From: Escherichia coli
GTDB lineage: Bacteria; Pseudomonadota; Gammaproteobacteria; Enterobacterales; Enterobacteriaceae
Length of the DNA stretch: 64,000 nucleotides
Assembly: GCF_044324875.1 (NCBI RefSeq)
Contig: NZ_CP172185.1
Strand: one strand, 5' to 3'
The notes beneath the pieces are model-generated. The model did not search any database. It saw nothing but the letters and a program-made list of their open reading frames with translations, and was not told where the DNA came from. Below, piece after piece: positions 44,550-52,422 of this stretch. The translations under genes were made by a program, and so were the position numbers. Every line of letters starts with the position of its first letter. Position 1 is the first letter of the stretch.

Positions 44550-45215
44550 ATGACTATTGCTGATTTCAAACGGCCTAAATTGGAGCTCCCGAACGGGGCA
44601 AACAAACTACTACTGCACTCTTGCTGTGCTCCATGTTCCGGTGAAGTGATGGAGGCGCTTCAGGCCTCGGGAATCGACTACACCATCTTTTTCTACAACC
44701 CGAACATTCATCCTCAGAAAGAGTATTTAATTCGTAAGGATGAAAATATTCGCTTTGCTGAACAACACGGCGTGCCGTTTATCGATGCTGATTACGACAC
44801 CGACAACTGGTTTGAACGTGCCAAAGGAATGGAATGGGAGCCTGAGAGGGGGATCCGTTGTACCATGTGTTTTGACATGCGTTTTGAGCGGACAGCGTTG
44901 TACGCTGCTGAAAATGGTTTCAGTGTGATCAGCAGTTCACTGGGCATTTCACGCTGGAAAAATATGCAGCAGGTTAACGAGTGTGGGCGGCGAGCTGTTG
45001 CGCATTATCCGGGTATGGTGTACTGGGATTATAACTGGCGCAAGCAGGGCGGCTCGTCCCGTATGATTGAAATCAGCAAGCGCGAAAAATTCTATCAGCA
45101 GGAATATTGTGGCTGTGTGTATTCTCTGCGCGATACCAATCTACACCGCAAATCTCAGGGACGCCCTCTTATAAAAATTGGCCAACTCCACTACGGAAAA
45201 GAAGAGAAGGAGTGA
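44550..45215 (+). CDS. DUF208 / QueH-like protein (putative B12-independent epoxyqueuosine reductase)
   Basis: 221 aa with N-terminal [14 protein letters not shown] motif and further conserved Cys (…[10 protein letters not shown]…, …EYCGCVYS…), resembling what I remember of the DUF208/QueH family; own promoter-like region upstream. Confidence 0.55.
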
Positions 45216-46127: not shown

Positions 46128-46427
46128 CTATAAAATATTAGATTCATAATTTTGTCCGCCGTGGTAAACGCCAGCGATAAAGACTTTATTGCCATCAACG
46201 GCAAAAGCAATAATCGTTCTGTGTCGGAAATGAGTTACCCGCATCCCCTGGCGAATATCATCGCGTTTATTGCCCCGATGCGGGAATGTAGAAAACCCAT
46301 CAAGATAATCAAGAAGCGCATTGGCATAATTGTCAGCAATGACGCTTCTTGCTTTCTCCGTTATATATCTGTGCAGGTTTATTATCTGCTGTTCGGCCTC
46401 GGGGGTAATGATGACTTCATATGTCAT
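46128..46427 (-). CDS. parE: ParE/RelE-family type II toxin
   Basis: 99 aa MTYEVIITPEAEQQIINLHRYI...; immediately downstream of a ParD-like gene. Confidence 0.7.
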   Translation of the reverse strand: MTYEVIITPEAEQQIINLHRYITEKARSVIADNYANALLDYLDGFSTFPHRGNKRDDIRQGMRVTHFRHRTIIAFAVDGNKVFIAGVYHGGQNYESNIL

Positions 46428-46432
46428 GCAGA

Positions 46433-46690
46433 TTACTTCCCGGATCGAATCGCGGCGCGAACCTGTGAAATGGAGCGTCCGTTGTTTGGATTTTCGCGGA
46501 TAGAATCAAGAGAGGGGGCGGCTGAATGCGTTAACCACGCTTCGATTGCTTTATCGCGCTCATTCAGTGCACGAAGCCCTTCACGAATGACCTCGCTTTC
46601 TGAAGCATAGGCACCGGAAGCCACACGGGCGCGCACCATGTCAGCCATCTCGTTAGTTAATGTAATGCTGAATTGTTGGGTTGTACGCAT
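46433..46690 (-). CDS. parD: ParD-like antitoxin
   Basis: Start at internal MRTTQQFSITLTNEMADMVRARVASGAYASESEVIREGLRAL... (ParD-like N-terminus); 5 nt upstream of parE. Confidence 0.65.
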   Translation of the reverse strand: MRTTQQFSITLTNEMADMVRARVASGAYASESEVIREGLRALNERDKAIEAWLTHSAAPSLDSIRENPNNGRSISQVRAAIRSGK

Positions 46691-46825
46691 GGTAAACCTC
46701 ACGGAGTAGGATAGAACACTATTCGATGATAGCACGCTGCCTGTTGACGACAACAGAAATCAGAGACAATATTGCCGCACGCCAGCCTGAACAACTGGCA
46801 CCTGCTGCGCCAGCAGAGAAAACAA

Positions 46826-47098
46826 ATGGCGCACAATACCAAAAATCACAATTCTGATGCCGTTCGTGCCAGCAGGCATGGGCGGCGTTCGCGCGTATTT
46901 AAAACCGACTGGTACCAACACCCTCCATGCACTGAAGAACAGGCCGAATGGCTGATTCAGTGTTACCGCAGACACGGATACGAGATTAAGAAAGCCCTCA
47001 GCCTCGATTATCGTCACTGGATAATCTCCGTCAGGCTTCCTTACTCAGAACGCCCACCGCGTCCGTCCCGCACATACCAGCAACGTATCTGGAGGTAA
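46826..47098 (+). CDS. Hypothetical phage protein
   Basis: ORF track frame 46772..47098; probable start at internal MAHNTKNH...; stop followed by the next gene's ribosome-binding site. Confidence 0.4.
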   Translation: MAHNTKNHNSDAVRASRHGRRSRVFKTDWYQHPPCTEEQAEWLIQCYRRHGYEIKKALSLDYRHWIISVRLPYSERPPRPSRTYQQRIWR

Positions 47099-47099
47099 C

Positions 47100-48158
47100 G
47101 TGCGGGTATTACTTCGACCTGTTCTGGTACCGGAACTCGGGCTGGTGGTCCTTAAGCCCGGTCGTGAATCCATGCCGGTATTTCACAATCCTCGAGTGCT
47201 GGTGGAGCCGGAACCGAAAAGTATGTGCGGCCTGCCATCCGGAGTCGTCCCTGCCGTTCGCCAGCCGCTGGCGGAGGATAAATCATTACTGCCATTTTTC
47301 AGCGATGATCGGGTGATTCGTGCTGTTGGCGGCGCTGGGGCACTGTCTGACTGGCTGTTGCGTCATGTCAAATCCTGCCAGTGGCCTCATGGTGACTATC
47401 ATCACAGTGAAATCGTCATACATCGTTACGGTACCGGCGCGATGGTGTTGTGCTGGCACTGCGACAACCAGCTGCGTGACCAGACATCCGAATCACTCGA
47501 GCAACTTGCTCATCAAAACCTGTCAGCATGGATGATTGACGTCATCGGTCACGCAATAAGCGGTACGCAGGAGCGTGAATTATCTCTGGCTGAATTATCC
47601 TGGTGGGCGGTCCGCAATCAGGTGGCGGACGCGCTTCCGGAGGCAGTATTACGTCGTTCTCTGGGGTTACGTGCGGAAAAAATCCGCTCCTTGTACCGCG
47701 AAAGCGACATCGTACCGGGAGAGCAGACCGTCACCAGCATACTGAAGCAGCGCACAAAAAATATTGCGCTACCGCCTCTCGTCCACCAGCAACAGAACCC
47801 ACCACAGGAAGAGACGGTGGTCAGCATTGCCGTTGATCCGGAGTCACCGGCTCAGTATCTCCAGCGCCAGAAACCACAACGGGAAGAGATGCCTGTATAC
47901 ACGCGCTGGGTAAAAACGCAGAAATGCATGACGTGCGGTAATCAGGCAGATGATCCGCATCACATCATTGGTCATGGACTGGGAGGGATGGGAACAAAGG
48001 CTGATGATTTGTTTGTTATTCCGCTGTGCCGTAAATGTCATAACGAACTGCACGCCGGGGTAAAAGATTTTGAAGAAAAACACGGCAGCCAGCTGTTGTT
48101 GCTGATTCGTTTTTTAATGCACGCGAGAAATTCAGGTGTCCTGAAGTGGAAAGCATAA
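47100..48158 (+). CDS. DUF968-like nin-region protein with C-terminal Cys/His HNH-like motif
   Basis: GTG start after GGAGG; C-terminus CMTCGN...DPHHIIGHGLGGMGTKADDLFVIPLCRKCHNELH; sits before rusA. Confidence 0.5.
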   Translation: MRVLLRPVLVPELGLVVLKPGRESMPVFHNPRVLVEPEPKSMCGLPSGVVPAVRQPLAEDKSLLPFFSDDRVIRAVGGAGALSDWLLRHVKSCQWPHGDYHHSEIVIHRYGTGAMVLCWHCDNQLRDQTSESLEQLAHQNLSAWMIDVIGHAISGTQERELSLAELSWWAVRNQVADALPEAVLRRSLGLRAEKIRSLYRESDIVPGEQTVTSILKQRTKNIALPPLVHQQQNPPQEETVVSIAVDPESPAQYLQRQKPQREEMPVYTRWVKTQKCMTCGNQADDPHHIIGHGLGGMGTKADDLFVIPLCRKCHNELHAGVKDFEEKHGSQLLLLIRFLMHARNSGVLKWKA

Positions 48159-48524
48159 ATGACTGAAAGCATAGAATTTGTTTTGCCTTACCCGCCAACG
48201 GTGAACACCTACTGGCGACGTCGTGGCAGCACATATTTTGTATCAAAAGCCGGTGAGCGTTATCGCCGTGATGTGGCGCTCATTGTTCGCCAGCAGCGGC
48301 TGAAGTTAAACCTGTCCGGACGGCTGGCGATAAAGATTATTGCAGAGCCACCGGATAAACGTCGTCGTGACCTGGACAATATCCTGAAAGCACCACTGGA
48401 TGCGCTGACGCATGCCGGACTTCTCATAGACGACGAGCAGTTTGATGAAATCAATATTGTGCGCGGTCAGCGCGTTCCTGGGGGGCGGCTGGGCGTGAAG
48501 ATTTACAAAATTGAGAGTGAGTGA
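48159..48524 (+). CDS. rusA: Holliday junction resolvase RusA
   Basis: 121 aa MTESIEFVLPYPPTVNTYW... with the RusA acidic motif RRRDLDN. Confidence 0.85.
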   Translation: MTESIEFVLPYPPTVNTYWRRRGSTYFVSKAGERYRRDVALIVRQQRLKLNLSGRLAIKIIAEPPDKRRRDLDNILKAPLDALTHAGLLIDDEQFDEINIVRGQRVPGGRLGVKIYKIESE

Positions 48525-49111
48525 TCGTAAATATGATATACCCGGAAATTACAGGCAAAAGCGGCGAGCATTTACGTCTAAAAACGCTGGAAGCCGTCTG
48601 GATCCAGGGGAAATTACGGATGTGGGGGCGTTGGTCGTATATCAGTGGAGGGACTAGCGGTAACATGTTTAACCAACTGCTTGTATCCAGCAAAATTACC
48701 AAAACTGCAATCAACGATGCGCTGCGCCGTATGAAAAAGTCAGGCATTACGAAACCAGAGCTCGAAGCTTATTTGCGCGAAATACTCAACAGTAAAAACA
48801 AAAGTAGTCTGGCGTTTTGCTCGGACGATGAAGGCCTGAAGATTGACGGTGTGATCGCCTCGGTGCTGATGAATAATGATTACCGTTCTCTATACGGTGT
48901 GATTGTTGGCCGGTATCGTCTGCGTAAGAGCAAGTTGCAAATGGCCAATGAGCTTCATATTAAACATCCTGACTGGGCGCTCATTACCTGTCGCCGCCGA
49001 GTTGACACATGGATAAGTTTGGCCGAATCGCTCCTGTACGTTCCACTATGTGATGCGTTTGGCACAAATAGCGACAGATTTAAATTGCAAAGTGAGCAAG
49101 AAAGTGCTTGA
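48521..49111 (+). CDS. Putative late-gene antiterminator (Q-position protein)
   Basis: 196 aa ORF between rusA and the lysis cassette; assignment is positional only. Confidence 0.4.
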   Translation: MIVNMIYPEITGKSGEHLRLKTLEAVWIQGKLRMWGRWSYISGGTSGNMFNQLLVSSKITKTAINDALRRMKKSGITKPELEAYLREILNSKNKSSLAFCSDDEGLKIDGVIASVLMNNDYRSLYGVIVGRYRLRKSKLQMANELHIKHPDWALITCRRRVDTWISLAESLLYVPLCDAFGTNSDRFKLQSEQESA

Positions 49112-49510: not shown

Positions 49511-49726
49511 ATGAAATCCATGGATAAGATAACAACGGGTGTCGCCTATGGCACCTCGGCAGGCAGTGCCGGGTACTGGTTTTTACAGTGGCTTGATCAG
49601 GTTAGTCCGTCACAGTGGGCTGCTATTGGTGTGCTGGGGAGTCTGGCACTGGGCTTTCTGACTTATCTGACGAATCTGTATTTCAAAATTAAAGATGATC
49701 GGCGCAAAGTGGCGCGGGGAGAGTAG
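49511..49726 (+). CDS. Holin (phage 21 S21 pinholin-like, dual-start motif)
   Basis: [71 protein letters not shown], closely matching what I recall of S21 including the Met-Lys-Ser-Met dual start. Confidence 0.85.
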
Positions 49727-49729
49727 GCG

Positions 49730-50041
49730 ATGAATAAAAAATACGAACTGGTTATTAAAGGGATAAGTAGTCACCCGGATAAGGTTGTGGTTACTGTGGC
49801 GCTGGAGAGCGACGGCTATCCGACGCTGTTTTCGCCGCATGTGGTGATTAAGCTTGATCGTGTTGACGGCGCAGCGCTGGAGCTTTATGAAGCAGAGGCG
49901 AAAAAACGAGCGAAGAAGATTTTTATGGATGCTGCTGCCGGGTTATGTGAAGCGTGGTCGTTGCCGGAAAAGCGCCTCCATTCAGAGGCGCGGTATACCA
50001 TAAAAATTAACGGTTCAGATAACTCAATTGCTGGTTTTTAA
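49730..50041 (+). CDS. Hypothetical protein translationally coupled to the holin
   Basis: 103 aa ORF starting 4 nt after the holin stop with GGAGAG upstream; no transmembrane segment or recognised motif. Confidence 0.5.
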   Translation: MNKKYELVIKGISSHPDKVVVTVALESDGYPTLFSPHVVIKLDRVDGAALELYEAEAKKRAKKIFMDAAAGLCEAWSLPEKRLHSEARYTIKINGSDNSIAGF

Positions 50042-50277
50042 CCTTTTGTCTCAGTTGGCTTTCCAATATCTTTCATTGGTAGCAGCATTTCGATATTGCT
50101 TTTGATATATGGATTATCTGCATGTTCTGTTAATTGATAAATGATAGCATTTTTTTCATTCTGGTCTAATACAGAAAACATAACTGCAATCATATATTTA
50201 AGAGCCTCAATTTCTCCTGTTGTTGAGTTGGGGGATGAACAGTCCGCTGTAACATTAATAAAAGTTTCTTTTTTCAT
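50038..50277 (-). CDS. Hypothetical protein, convergent, AT-rich
   Basis: 79 aa ORF with AAGGA ribosome-binding site; 3' end overlaps the 3' end of the upstream plus-strand gene by 4 nt; visibly AT-rich. Confidence 0.45.
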   Translation of the reverse strand: MKKETFINVTADCSSPNSTTGEIEALKYMIAVMFSVLDQNEKNAIIYQLTEHADNPYIKSNIEMLLPMKDIGKPTETKG

Positions 50278-50401
50278 ATCAGATCCTTAGATGGGGTAGC
50301 TCAGCCAACCACCCGAGCCTTAACCGGAACGCCAGTGCCCACTACACTACTGGCGGGCTGAGGCTTTAACATATCCAGGGTTCAGAAAACGATAAATATC
50401 C

Positions 50402-50935
50402 ATGAGCACAAAAATCAGATACGGCCTGTCGGCTGCCGTTCTGGCGTTGATTGCTGCAGGTGCATCCGCTCCCGTCATTCTTGACCAGTTTCTGGACGAA
50501 AAAGAAGGTAATCACACTACGGCATACCGTGATGGCTCCGGTATATGGACCATCTGTCGGGGTGCCACGATGGTGGATGGAAAACCCGTTTTTCCCGGTA
50601 TGAAACTGTCGAAGGAAAAATGCGACCAGGTCAACGCCATCGAACGGGATAAGGCGCTGGCATGGGTGGAGCGCAATATTAAAGTTCCACTGACCGAAGC
50701 ACAGAAAGCGGGTATTGCGTCATTCTGTCCCTATAACATTGGCCCCGGTAAGTGTTTCCCGTCGACGTTTTATAAGCGGCTGAATGCCGGTGATCGTAAG
50801 GGCGCATGCGAGGCGATTCGCTGGTGGATAAAAGATGGTGGGCGCGATTGCCGCATACGTTCAAATAACTGCTATGGACAGGTTATTCGTCGTGACCAGG
50901 AAAGCGCATTAGCCTGTTGGGGAATAGATCAGTGA
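50402..50935 (+). CDS. Phage lysozyme (T4-lysozyme fold) with N-terminal signal-anchor, SAR-endolysin-like
   Basis: N-terminal hydrophobic [21 protein letters not shown] followed by catalytic E-x8-D-x5-T ([16 protein letters not shown]). Confidence 0.8.
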
Positions 50936-51399
50936 GCAGAGTCGCCGCGATTATTTATGCTCTGGTTATCTGCACTATCGTCTGCCTGTCGTGGGCGGTC
51001 AATCATTACCGTGATAACGCCATAGCCTACAAAGAACAGCGTGATAAAAAAGTCAGTGAGCTGAAGCAGGCGATCGCCACCATCGCTGACATGCAGCAGC
51101 GTCAGCGTGATGTTGCTGCGCTCGATGCAAAGTACTCGAGAGAATTAGCCAATGCGAAAGCTGAAAATGAAACTCTGCGCGCTGATGTTGCCGCTGGTCG
51201 TAAGCGCCTGCGGGTCAATGTCAGTTGCTCCGAAGCCGTGCGTGAAGCCACCGGACCCACCAGCGTGGATAATGCAACCAGCCCCCGACTGGCAGACACC
51301 GCTGAACGGGATTATTTCACCCTCAGAGAACGGTTGATGACGATGCAGAAGCAACTGGAAGGGGCACAGGAGTATATCCGCACTCAGTGCATTAAGTAG
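50932..51399 (+). CDS. Spanin, inner-membrane subunit (Rz)
   Basis: GTG start overlapping the endolysin stop; [38 protein letters not shown]... closely matches lambda Rz from memory. Confidence 0.8.
51152..51337 (+). CDS. Spanin, outer-membrane lipoprotein subunit (Rz1), embedded in Rz in the +1 frame
   Basis: [21 protein letters not shown]...[32 protein letters not shown]: lipobox and proline-rich region matching lambda Rz1. Confidence 0.8.
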
Positions 51400-51441: not shown

Positions 51442-51792
51442 ATGCCATCACGAATCCCACGCGCCTGCCGTAAGCGTGGATGTGCAGGTACAACCACAGA
51501 CAGTTCTGGTTACTGCGATAAACATCGTGGCGAAGGATGGGTACAGCATCAACGCGGACTGAGCCGCCACCAGCGTGGCTATGGCTCGAAATGGGATGCC
51601 ATACGTGCGCGCATACTGAAGCGTGATAATCATCTGTGTCAGAACTGCCTGTGCAATGGGAGAGCTGTTGAAGCCAGAACTGTGGACCACATCATTCCGA
51701 AAGCTCATGGTGGCACGGATGCAGACAGTAACCTGCAGAGTCTGTGCTGGCCCTGTCATAAAGCAAAAACAGCGCGCGAACGCATCAATTGA
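51442..51792 (+). CDS. HNH endonuclease (terminase-associated)
   Basis: 116 aa with ...CQNC...DHIIPKAHGG...NLQSLCWPCH...; directly upstream of the terminase small subunit. Confidence 0.8.
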   Translation: MPSRIPRACRKRGCAGTTTDSSGYCDKHRGEGWVQHQRGLSRHQRGYGSKWDAIRARILKRDNHLCQNCLCNGRAVEARTVDHIIPKAHGGTDADSNLQSLCWPCHKAKTARERIN

Positions 51793-51939: not shown

Positions 51940-52422
51940 ATGTCAGGACCCCCGAAAACCCCGCCACGCCTGCATTTGATACGAGGCAACCCCTCAAAGC
52001 GCCCCGTTAAAGACCCAAAAAAAACCGCTAAAAAGGATGAAAAAGGTCTCCCTAAAATTCCGCAACATTTAGGGTCGCAGGGGAAGTACTGGTTCAGGCG
52101 AATGGCGGAAGAACTGAATGCGGAAGGGATCATTTCTCAGCTTGATGCGCGTGCACTCGAGTTACTGGTGGAAGCCTACACCGAATACCGGCATTACTGC
52201 GAAACACTCGATGTTGAGGGGTATACCTACCGCACGGAAACGCAGAACGGTGATGTGCTGATTAAGGCACACCCGGCTGCTGCGATGAAAGCGGATGCCT
52301 GGAAGCGGATCCGGGCGATGCTTGCAGAATTTGGTATGTCACCGGCAAGCCGGGCGAAAGTAAATACCGCCGGACCGGATGATGTTGATCCGCTGGCGGA
52401 GCTTTTAAAAGCGAGAGACTGA
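51940..52422 (+). CDS. Terminase small subunit
   Basis: 160 aa ORF immediately preceding and abutting the terminase large subunit. Confidence 0.7.
   Translation: MSGPPKTPPRLHLIRGNPSKRPVKDPKKTAKKDEKGLPKIPQHLGSQGKYWFRRMAEELNAEGIISQLDARALELLVEAYTEYRHYCETLDVEGYTYRTETQNGDVLIKAHPAAAMKADAWKRIRAMLAEFGMSPASRAKVNTAGPDDVDPLAELLKARD

What the first reader, a model, noticed from the sequence alone, without database searches (positions are those of the whole stretch)
47100..48158. nin-region protein with a C-terminal Cys/His HNH-like zinc motif
The C-terminus CMTCGN...HHIIGHGLGG...PLCRKCHNELH looks like a degenerate HNH or zinc-finger nuclease motif, and the gene sits immediately before rusA. Function is unclear.
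Basis: inference. Interest (0 to 1): 0.3.

Follow-up and report, generated by a model that had tools for sequence, protein, structure and literature searches.

The report
Prophage YdfU-type HNH nuclease gene
This is an ordinary, very common E. coli prophage gene of the YdfU/DUF968 family, whose C-terminal end is a complete zinc-stabilised HNH nuclease domain sitting next to the junction-cutting enzyme RusA; the family is already catalogued as an HNH nuclease, but nobody has tested what it does.

Summary
ORF 47100-48158 (+, GTG start, 352 aa) carries exactly the quoted Cys/His motif and abuts rusA (48159). It is a full-length YdfU/DUF968 protein: Pfam PF06147 E=1e-62, PHROG 96 'HNH endonuclease' E=8e-163, 78% identical to E. 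coli K-12 YdfU and 95% to a cluster of more than 5000 E. coli sequences.

The literature already places DUF968 with YbcO in His-Me finger group 7, so this is a known family.

Most likely role (inferred): a nuclease that nicks recombination or replication intermediates alongside RusA, in the slot λ gives to Rap. Low interest.

The parts
47100..48158 (+). YdfU/DUF968-family gene, 352 aa, GTG start, TAA stop
   Evidence: ORF list. Pfam DUF968 E=1e-62. PHROG 96 'HNH endonuclease' E=8.4e-163 over residues 1-349. 78% identical to K-12 YdfU. Annotated 'DUF968 domain-containing protein' in E. coli B7A.
47091..47095 (+). Shine-Dalgarno GGAGG. It overlaps the stop (TAA 47096-47098) of the upstream ORF, which suggests translational coupling.
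   Evidence: Read directly from the sequence.
47100..47573 (+). N-terminal domain (residues 1-158): a small beta sheet, helices and a beta-beta-alpha unit. No Pfam family covers it.
   Evidence: AF2 pLDDT 92 for the domain alone. No Pfam hit for 36 homologues. PHROG 11007 'unknown function'.
47376..47477 (+). N-domain Zn beta-beta-alpha core (residues 93-126): C93, H101 (C or H in the family), C118 and C121 (H or C in the family), plus W119 and D122. Candidate degenerate HNH-like module.
47577..47771 (+). Helical middle region (residues 160-224) with the conserved 'ELxWWA' motif. This is where the Pfam DUF968 model begins.
   Evidence: Pfam DUF968 match covers residues 160-344. Helices 163-172, 181-187 and 211-220. 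Alignment A1.
47772..47843 (+). Low-confidence, proline/glutamine-rich linker (residues 225-248)
   Evidence: pLDDT below 50 for residues 230-240. Variable length in A1.
47844..48155 (+). C-terminal HNH / His-Me finger domain with trailing helices (residues 249-352)
47925..48053 (+). HNH core (residues 276-318). Zn ligands C276, C279, C310, C313. Catalytic centre H287, H288, D303, H314, H318.
   Evidence: Sequence. Conservation: C276 33/33, C279 27/33, H287 28/33, H288 29/33, D303 33/33, C310 28/33, position 313 C or H in 27/33, H314 28/33, H318 28/33. In-register alignment with the mutated residues of Gp16: C148, C181, H184, H157, H185, H189.
48159..48524 (+). RusA Holliday-junction resolvase gene. 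It starts on the base after the DUF968 stop.
   Evidence: Pfam RusA E=4.9e-16. NCBIfam PRK09786 82 bits. tblastn with K-12 RusA E=2.8e-24.
48521..49111 (+). Q-like late-gene regulator (DUF1133 / Phage_antitermQ). Its GTG start overlaps the rusA stop (GTGA).
   Evidence: Pfam DUF1133 E=1.6e-90 and Phage_antitermQ E=1.8e-08. Sequence.
46772..47098 (+). Upstream small ORF (108 aa as listed; start uncertain), translationally coupled to the DUF968 gene. Unknown function.
   Evidence: PHROG 1212 E=1e-34 over residues 43-108. PGAP calls a 90-aa homologue in B7A.

Best explanation
The gene encodes a two-module phage DNA enzyme of the YdfU/DUF968 family. The C-terminal ~105 residues form a complete HNH (His-Me finger) nuclease domain. 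A CxxC...CxxC zinc site (C276, C279, C310, C313) holds it together. The catalytic centre comprises H287/H288 at the end of strand 1, invariant D303 in the position of the motif's Asn, and H314/H318 on the helix. This domain belongs to the Ref / YbcO / HNHc_6 branch of HNH enzymes. The N-terminal ~160 residues form a separate folded domain with a second conserved zinc beta-beta-alpha unit. That unit lacks a conserved catalytic histidine, so it probably serves for DNA or partner binding rather than cleavage. The gene is expressed from the early-right (nin) operon and is translationally coupled to rusA and a Q-like regulator. Most likely the protein nicks DNA at recombination or replication intermediates (D-loops, branched DNA), possibly stimulated by RecA or a phage recombinase. 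This would feed or complement Holliday-junction resolution by RusA. It fills the slot that lambda gives to Rap (NinG) and that phage 82/DLP12 gives to YbcO. Shown here: family membership, fold, presence of every catalytic and zinc residue, and synteny. Inferred: that it is an active nuclease, its substrate, any RecA dependence, and the role of the N-domain.
For: Family membership: DUF968 E=1e-62, HNHc_6 above its gathering cut-off; PHROG 96 full length; 78% identity to K-12 YdfU.
Active site: conservation counts. The window residues align in register with the six Gp16 residues whose mutation reduced or abolished Gp16's effect. BLASTP to Gp16 gives E=4e-9, and Gp16 itself scores above the DUF968 cut-off.
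Characterised relatives: Ref is a RecA-dependent D-loop nickase (abstracts). Gp16 is a RecA-stimulated nickase needed for phage DNA replication.
Synteny: RusA lies within two genes in 8 of 12 DUF968 loci and is directly adjacent in 5. ybcO sits directly upstream of rusA in DLP12. The window has no Rap, Orf, YbcN or NinH homologue. Start/stop junctions are tight at 47096-47100, 48156-48159 and 48521-48524.
Literature: DUF968 and DUF1364 form His-Me group 7, with RusA and Q as neighbours and a proposed recombination role (PMC5714182). YbcO was predicted to be a nuclease related to Ref (PMC4999995).
Against: No member of DUF968 has been tested biochemically in the library searched.
The protein matches neither the RecA_dep_nuc nor the YbcO Pfam model at E<=1.
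Its N-terminus is neither Ref's disordered basic tail nor Gp16's NinB-like domain.
The P1 PdcB clade of the family has lost the HH pair and the helix histidines yet is maintained. The family can therefore persist without catalysis.
RusA is absent from 4 of 12 contexts. The 12 loci are not independent lineages.
The one constant neighbour is the late-gene regulator, which would also fit a regulatory role.
Confidence: 0.6

Rival explanations
1. It is mainly a non-catalytic DNA-binding or regulatory protein, for example an accessory to late-gene activation. The HNH fold would be used only as a zinc-finger DNA-binding module, as in Smad MH1.
For: In every complete context examined, the gene lies at the end of the early operon. 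It sits directly upstream of, or one gene (RusA or a small unannotated ORF) before, the late regulator where one is recognised: Q, DUF1133, Antiterm, or Lpa in P1. The PdcB clade lacks the catalytic histidines but is conserved. Inactive His-Me fingers that still bind DNA are documented (PMC5714182). One group-7 member is annotated as a transcriptional regulator.
Against: In this protein and in 28-29 of 33 diverse homologues every catalytic residue is kept. That is not expected if only binding mattered. The 'antitermination protein Q' label on the mEp460 homologues is carried by DUF968-family genes that lie in the same early-operon region, and no evidence supports it. Position at the end of the nin region is shared by many unrelated genes.
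Confidence: 0.15
2. It is a host-directed nuclease (host takeover or inter-phage conflict) rather than a recombination helper. It would damage or nick host DNA to block host replication, as reported for Gp16.
For: Gp16 of ΦNM1, with a homologous HNH domain, inhibits host growth and replication and condenses the nucleoid. P1 Ref increases ciprofloxacin lethality. Toxin-antitoxin cassettes lie just upstream of the gene here, in Qin and in P1.
Against: No PADLOC match. The gene is carried intact in thousands of E. coli lysogens and cryptic prophages. The recurrent pairing with RusA points to phage DNA metabolism. This reading overlaps with the best explanation rather than excluding it.
Confidence: 0.15
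3. It is the terminase-associated HNH that helps cut cos/pac DNA (HK97 gp74 type), or a selfish homing endonuclease.
For: HNH proteins in phages often have these roles (introduction of PMC12817073).
Against: A separate canonical HNH (Pfam HNH E=2.4e-15) sits at 51442-51792 directly before the small terminase gene at 51940 and already fills the gp74 slot. The DUF968 gene is about 3.3 kb upstream in the early operon. Its position and large N-domain are conserved across Escherichia, Klebsiella, Vibrio and P1, unlike sporadic homing-endonuclease insertions.
Confidence: 0.04

Closest known systems
E. coli K-12 YdfU (Qin prophage), Pfam DUF968 PF06147, PHROG 96, His-Me finger group 7 of Jablonska et al. 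2017
   Same: Same family and same architecture over the full length. 78% identity. Pfam E=1e-62. PHROG match over 1-349. Same place in the prophage, just before the Q-type gene.
   Different: Nothing essential. K-12 YdfU has His instead of Cys at position 313, a substitution common in the family. Qin has lost rusA. YdfU itself is uncharacterised.
YbcO (DUF1364, PDB 3g27) of prophage DLP12 / phage 82
   Different: YbcO is 96 aa and consists of the HNH domain only. It has no N-terminal domain or middle region. The window protein does not match the YbcO Pfam model. YbcO's nuclease activity is also only predicted.
Bacteriophage P1 Ref (PDB 3plw), a RecA-dependent HNH nickase
   Different: Ref has a disordered, basic 76-residue N-terminus instead of a folded Zn domain. 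There is no Pfam RecA_dep_nuc match here. RecA dependence is untested for DUF968. P1 carries both Ref and a DUF968 homologue, PdcB.
Gp16 of S. aureus phage ΦNM1 (Pfam HNHc_6), a RecA-stimulated nickase (NAR 2026, PMC12817073)
   Same: Homologous HNH domain: 39% identity over 59 aa, E=4e-9. Each protein scores above the other family's Pfam cut-off. All six functionally tested Zn and catalytic residues are conserved. It is an early phage gene, and that genome also carries RusA.
   Different: Gp16's N-domain resembles NinB/Orf. The window's N-domain gave no NinB match and instead looks HNH-like. Different host phylum; 223 versus 352 aa.
Lambda Rap (NinG), a branch-specific HNH-type endonuclease
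   Same: Same region of the nin operon shortly before Q. A His-Me finger nuclease acting on D-loops and junctions. The window prophage lacks any Rap homologue.
   Different: No detectable sequence similarity. It belongs to a different His-Me group, 24 rather than 7. The analogy rests on position only.

Membership tests
DUF968 / YdfU (Pfam PF06147; PHROG 96) | Score above the curated Pfam gathering cut-off | tested here: met
   211.6 bits against a cut-off of 27.8, residues 160-344 matching profile positions 1-169 of 171.
DUF968 / YdfU (Pfam PF06147; PHROG 96) | Full-length collinearity with known members, N-terminal domain included | tested here: met
   PHROG 96 covers residues 1-349 against profile 1-334 of 334. 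78% identity over 347 aa to K-12 YdfU. Aligns end to end with 32 diverse homologues.
HNH / His-Me finger nuclease superfamily | Beta-beta-alpha-metal fold | tested here: met
HNH / His-Me finger nuclease superfamily | Catalytic His at the end of strand 1, plus metal-binding residues on the helix and an Asn/Asp between them | tested here: met
   H287/H288, D303 (Asp in place of Asn, 33/33), H314 and H318 are present and conserved in 28-33 of 33 homologues. They align with Gp16 H157, H185 and H189.
HNH / His-Me finger nuclease superfamily | Metal-dependent DNA cleavage | not testable with these tools
   Needs purified protein. No published assay for any DUF968 member was found.
RecA-dependent nucleases (P1 Ref, Pfam RecA_dep_nuc; ΦNM1 Gp16) | Sequence membership in the Ref family model | tested here: not met
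   No RecA_dep_nuc hit at E<=1. The similarity to Ref is structural only.
RecA-dependent nucleases (P1 Ref, Pfam RecA_dep_nuc; ΦNM1 Gp16) | Ref-type disordered basic N-terminus or Gp16-type NinB-like N-domain | tested here: not met
RecA-dependent nucleases (P1 Ref, Pfam RecA_dep_nuc; ΦNM1 Gp16) | Cleavage requires or is stimulated by RecA filaments | not testable with these tools
   Biochemical property. It is only suggested by the two closest characterised relatives.
HNHc_6 (Pfam PF16784) | Score above the gathering cut-off over the whole model, including the Orf-like N-terminal part | tested here: inconclusive
   31.8 bits against a 26.6 cut-off, but only profile positions 119-184 of 204 (the HNH part) are matched. 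The Orf-like part is absent. So it is a relative of the domain, not a member of the architecture.
YbcO / DUF1364 (Pfam PF07102) | Match to the family model | tested here: not met
   No hit at E<=1. PDB sequence search finds 3g27 only at E=0.35 to 1.4. The structure matches well, so it is a sister family, as in the literature.
Terminase-associated HNH (HK97 gp74 type) | Gene adjacent to the terminase genes | tested here: not met
   The gene lies about 3.8 kb upstream of terS. A different HNH gene (51442-51792) occupies that position.
Tandem / duplicated HNH (proposed here for the N-domain) | The N-domain core is a second HNH-like beta-beta-alpha zinc module | tested here: inconclusive

The most novel reading that the evidence does not exclude
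DUF968 proteins are intramolecular 'pseudo-dimers' of two HNH modules. An ancient duplication would have left a dead N-terminal zinc beta-beta-alpha copy that positions a single live C-terminal active site. The result would be a structure-directed nickase, possibly guided by RecA or a recombinase, that forms a two-enzyme unit with RusA and replaces lambda Rap. The PdcB clade, with both modules dead, would then be a purely DNA-binding derivative.
Probability: 0.15. Interest if true: 0.45.

Novelty: already known. Interest (0 to 1): 0.2.

Why it matters
It matters little as a discovery. The gene is one of thousands of near-identical E. coli prophage copies of a family already classed as an HNH/His-Me finger nuclease. 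What it offers is a better annotation: 'HNH nuclease of the YdfU family, complete active site', not 'degenerate motif'. It also gives a concrete, testable hypothesis for a y-gene family that has no experimental data. The two closest characterised relatives (P1 Ref and ΦNM1 Gp16) are both RecA-linked nickases, and the gene repeatedly pairs with RusA. If the N-terminal second zinc module is confirmed as a dead HNH copy, it would be a small addition to how HNH enzymes are built.

Tried and rejected
1. Direct BLASTP of the N-terminal against the C-terminal half found nothing (E>2).
2. Profile-profile hhalign of the N-core against the C-core aligned the Cys/His positions in register, but with probability 1.7% and P=0.03. 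Internal duplication is therefore not demonstrated by sequence.
4. Profiles of the full protein and of the N-domain against PDB sequences gave only a weak YbcO hit (E=1.4) and noise.
5. NCBIfam had no meaningful model. PADLOC found no defence-system match.
Context was therefore sampled through 12 loci instead.
7. The search for homologous proteins returned only homologues at least 87% identical among the 120 listed, nearly all labelled E. coli. That was no use for diversity, so the 50%-cluster search was used.
8. tblastn of lambda NinB, C, E, F, G, H, I and K-12 YbcN against the window found no homologues.
9. Homologues with the DUF968 N-terminus fused to tail-fibre domains (P0146, P0174, P0175, P0227) were considered as a clue to function. 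They were set aside as probable deletion chimeras of decayed prophages.
10. The terminase-helper and homing-endonuclease readings were rejected on position and on the presence of a separate HNH gene at 51442.

Full report
**Observation**

The window is an E. coli chromosome segment: its pdu operon is 99% identical to many E. coli genomes. It carries a lambdoid prophage whose right half is about 94% identical to several induced E. coli phages.

ORF 47100..48158 on the + strand is real, 352 aa with a GTG start.

The GTG start is credible for four reasons:
- A GGAGG sits at 47091-47095.
- The upstream ORF's TAA stop (47096-47098) ends one base before the GTG.
- PGAP and GenBank annotators call the same length in E. 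coli B7A and in phage vB_EcoM-606R7.
- The PHROG 96 profile matches from residue 1.

The stop codon is followed on the next base by the ATG of a RusA gene (48159-48524; Pfam RusA E=4.9e-16; 38.7% identical to K-12 RusA). The rusA stop in turn overlaps the GTG of a Q-like DUF1133 gene (48521-49111). The three genes therefore form one tightly coupled unit at the end of the early-right (nin) operon, just before the lysis cassette.

**What it is**

The protein is a full-length member of the YdfU/DUF968 family:
- Pfam PF06147 gives E=1e-62 for residues 160-344.
- PHROG 96, labelled 'HNH endonuclease', gives E=8.4e-163 over residues 1-349.
- It is 78% identical to K-12 YdfU of the Qin prophage.
- It is 95% identical to a 90%-identity cluster with 5135 member sequences, and 4555 of 5426 complete E. 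coli genomes have similar DNA.
- 175 phage records encode a homologue. They span Escherichia, Klebsiella, Salmonella, Shigella, Providencia and Vibrio phages, and include PdcB of phage P1.
- An exhaustive search of 50%-identity cluster representatives found 2168 relatives at E<=1e-3.

**The C-terminal motif**

It is a complete HNH (His-Me finger) domain, not a degenerate one.

- Pfam HNHc_6 is matched above its gathering cut-off, at 31.8 against 26.6 bits.
- An AlphaFold2 model built on 33 diverse homologues has mean pLDDT 85.4. It shows the beta-beta-alpha unit at 285-288 / 306-309 / 311-319.

Across the 33-sequence alignment the key residues are conserved as follows:

| Role | Residue | Count of 33 |
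|---|---|---|
| Zn ligand | C276 | 33 |
| Zn ligand | C279 | 27 |
| Zn ligand | C310 | 28 |
| Zn ligand | position 313 (Cys or His) | 27 |
| Catalytic centre | H287 | 28 |
| Catalytic centre | H288 | 29 |
| Catalytic centre | D303 | 33 |
| Catalytic centre | H314 | 28 |
| Catalytic centre | H318 | 28 |

Aligned with Gp16 of S. aureus phage ΦNM1, the window's C279/C310/C313 correspond to Gp16's zinc-finger residues C148/C181/H184. H288/H314/H318 correspond to Gp16's nuclease-centre residues H157/H185/H189. According to PMC12817073, these are the residues whose mutation reduced or abolished Gp16's effects.

Gp16 and the window's C-domain are 39% identical over 59 residues (E=4e-9 for the single comparison). 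Gp16 scores above the DUF968 cut-off, and the window protein scores above the HNHc_6 cut-off.

**The rest of the protein**

Pfam covers nothing in residues 1-160, for this protein or for any of 36 homologues. The region is nevertheless well conserved and confidently folded (pLDDT 92 on its own).

It contains a beta hairpin (105-110, 113-118) followed by a helix (119-125). It also carries a conserved four-ligand set: C93 (33/33), C or H at 101 (30/33), C118 (33/33) and H or C at 121 (33/33). W119 (32/33) and D122 (31/33) are conserved too. This is the signature of a structural zinc site on a beta-beta-alpha scaffold.

Evidence that this module is HNH-like:
- MAFFT and hhalign both place the N-core in register with the C-terminal HNH core.

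Evidence that the support is limited:
- hhalign gives only P=0.03 and probability 1.7%.
- Foldseek finds nothing significant.
- The N-domain profile finds no PDB sequence.

The histidine that would be catalytic is poorly conserved: position 102 is His in 17 of 33, and position 108 in 4 of 33. The helix positions equivalent to H314 and H318 are Asp and a variable residue.

My reading, at moderate confidence, is that this is a second, degenerate and probably non-catalytic HNH-like zinc module. I found no mention of it in the His-Me finger classification paper.

Between the two domains lie a helical segment with the 'ELxWWA' motif (160-224) and a low-confidence Pro/Gln-rich linker (225-248). The pTM of 0.54 means the relative placement of the domains is not defined.

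**Context**

I examined the window plus 11 other DUF968 loci. In all complete cases the gene lies at the end of the early operon. It sits directly upstream of, or one gene (RusA or a small unannotated ORF) before, the late regulator where one is recognised: Q, DUF1133, Antiterm, or Lpa in P1.

RusA is present within the sampled flanks in 8 of 12 loci. It is directly adjacent in 5 and one gene away in 3. One of these is an unannotated RusA in phage SfIV. These loci are not independent; about 5 of 9 lineages show the pairing.

In K-12 DLP12, the stand-alone HNH protein YbcO sits in the same slot, overlapping the start of rusA. The window prophage has no homologue of lambda Rap (NinG), Orf (NinB), NinH or YbcN. 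In lambda, Rap occupies the corresponding stretch before Q.

A separate canonical HNH gene (51442-51792, Pfam HNH E=2.4e-15) lies directly before the small terminase gene (51940). It already fills the HK97 gp74-type packaging role.

**How it most likely works**

*Shown here:*
- Family membership.
- The HNH fold, with all zinc and catalytic residues present.
- Operon coupling to rusA and the Q-like gene.
- Recurrent synteny with RusA.

*From the literature:*
[quoted passage not shown] Their neighbours include RusA and Q, fusions to Erf and Rad52 have been reported, and a role in recombination has been proposed (PMC5714182; PMC4118853).
- YbcO was linked to Ref by profile comparison and predicted to be a nuclease (PMC4999995).
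- Ref is a RecA-dependent nickase that cuts D-loops (abstracts).
- Gp16 is a RecA-stimulated nickase needed for efficient phage DNA replication.

*Inferred:* this protein is an active metal-dependent nickase. It acts on branched recombination or replication intermediates, perhaps directed by RecA or a phage recombinase. Its N-domain would provide DNA or partner binding. It would work upstream of, or alongside, Holliday-junction resolution by RusA. Together the pair would do what Rap does in lambda.

I put about 0.95 on 'HNH-fold domain with an intact active site'. I put about 0.6 on 'active nuclease in phage DNA recombination or replication'. I put about 0.3 on RecA dependence specifically.

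**Rivals**

- A non-catalytic regulatory or DNA-binding role is kept alive by two facts: the constant position before the late regulator, and the PdcB clade (P1 PdcB, P0203, P0208, P0224). That clade has lost the HH pair, the GGMG loop and the helix histidines, yet is conserved.
- A host-directed role like that of Gp16 overlaps with the main explanation.
- Packaging-helper and homing-endonuclease roles are disfavoured by gene position and by the second HNH gene.

**Novelty and score**

The gene, its family and the HNH assignment are all already in databases and in the literature. PHROGs and some GenBank records even call it 'HNH endonuclease'. No experiment on any DUF968 protein was found.

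This analysis adds four points:
- The motif is complete rather than degenerate.
- The residues map one to one onto a recently characterised nickase.
- The best structural relative is Ref.
- The N-terminal domain may hold a second, dead HNH-like zinc module.

This is an ordinary finding, correctly read by the first stage. Interest is 0.2.

Noticed in passing
window 44550-45215 (+): A 221-aa ORF in the prophage nin region is a strong match to epoxyqueuosine reductase QueH (Pfam PF02677, E=9.6e-66). A queuosine-pathway enzyme is an unusual cargo for a lambdoid prophage.
   Followed up: no
window 46128-46753 (-); L009 (K-12 Qin); L003 (P1): A ParE/ParD toxin-antitoxin cassette lies on the opposite strand just upstream of the DUF968 operon. 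Toxin-antitoxin modules also sit just upstream of DUF968 homologues in Qin (relBE, hokD) and P1 (phd-doc). This could be a shared moron insertion site or coincidence.
   Followed up: partly
L003:3405-4448 (P1 pdcB); proteins P0203, P0208, P0224: The P1 PdcB branch of DUF968 has lost the HH pair, the GGMG loop and the helix histidines but keeps the Cys pairs and D303. It is probably a catalytically dead variant. P1 also encodes Ref, the best structural match of the live domain.
   Followed up: partly
proteins P0169, P0183, P0213, P0214, P0239, P0246 (alignment A1): A sub-branch has replaced C279 (with C310 and C313 also replaced in five of the six, P0213 keeping C310), so the zinc tetrad is gone, while keeping HH, D303 and the helix histidines. 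In the family the zinc site is dispensable but the catalytic centre is not.
   Followed up: no
proteins P0146, P0174, P0175, P0227: The first 115-220 residues of DUF968 are fused to phage tail-fibre or tip-attachment (J) domains. These are most likely deletion chimeras in decayed prophages rather than real architectures.
   Followed up: partly
L007:1066-1440 (Shigella phage SfIV): An unannotated RusA gene, 97.6% identical to that of Stx2a_WGPS2, lies in a gap of the SfIV annotation two genes upstream of its DUF968 gene.
   Followed up: yes
phage records LR597641.1 and LR595868.1 (mEp460 variants): The DUF968 homologue in these records is annotated 'Phage antitermination protein Q'. This is very likely an annotation error carried over from the neighbouring gene.
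   Followed up: no
window 51442-51792 (+): A second, canonical HNH endonuclease gene (Pfam HNH E=2.4e-15) lies directly before the small terminase subunit gene at 51940 (Terminase_4). This is the HK97 gp74-type arrangement.
   Followed up: partly
window 46772-47098 (+): A small ORF of unknown function (PHROG 1212, E=1e-34 over residues 43-108) is translationally coupled to the DUF968 gene. Its start is uncertain: the ORF list gives 108 aa from a TTG, PGAP aa in E. coli B7A.
   Followed up: no
window 49511-51399: A standard lysis cassette follows the Q-like gene: holin (49511-49726), DUF1327 (49730-50041), lysozyme (50402-50935), and Rz (50917-51399) with an embedded Rz1-like ORF (51152-51337). 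An 79-aa ORF on the opposite strand (50038-50277) has no Pfam match.
   Followed up: no
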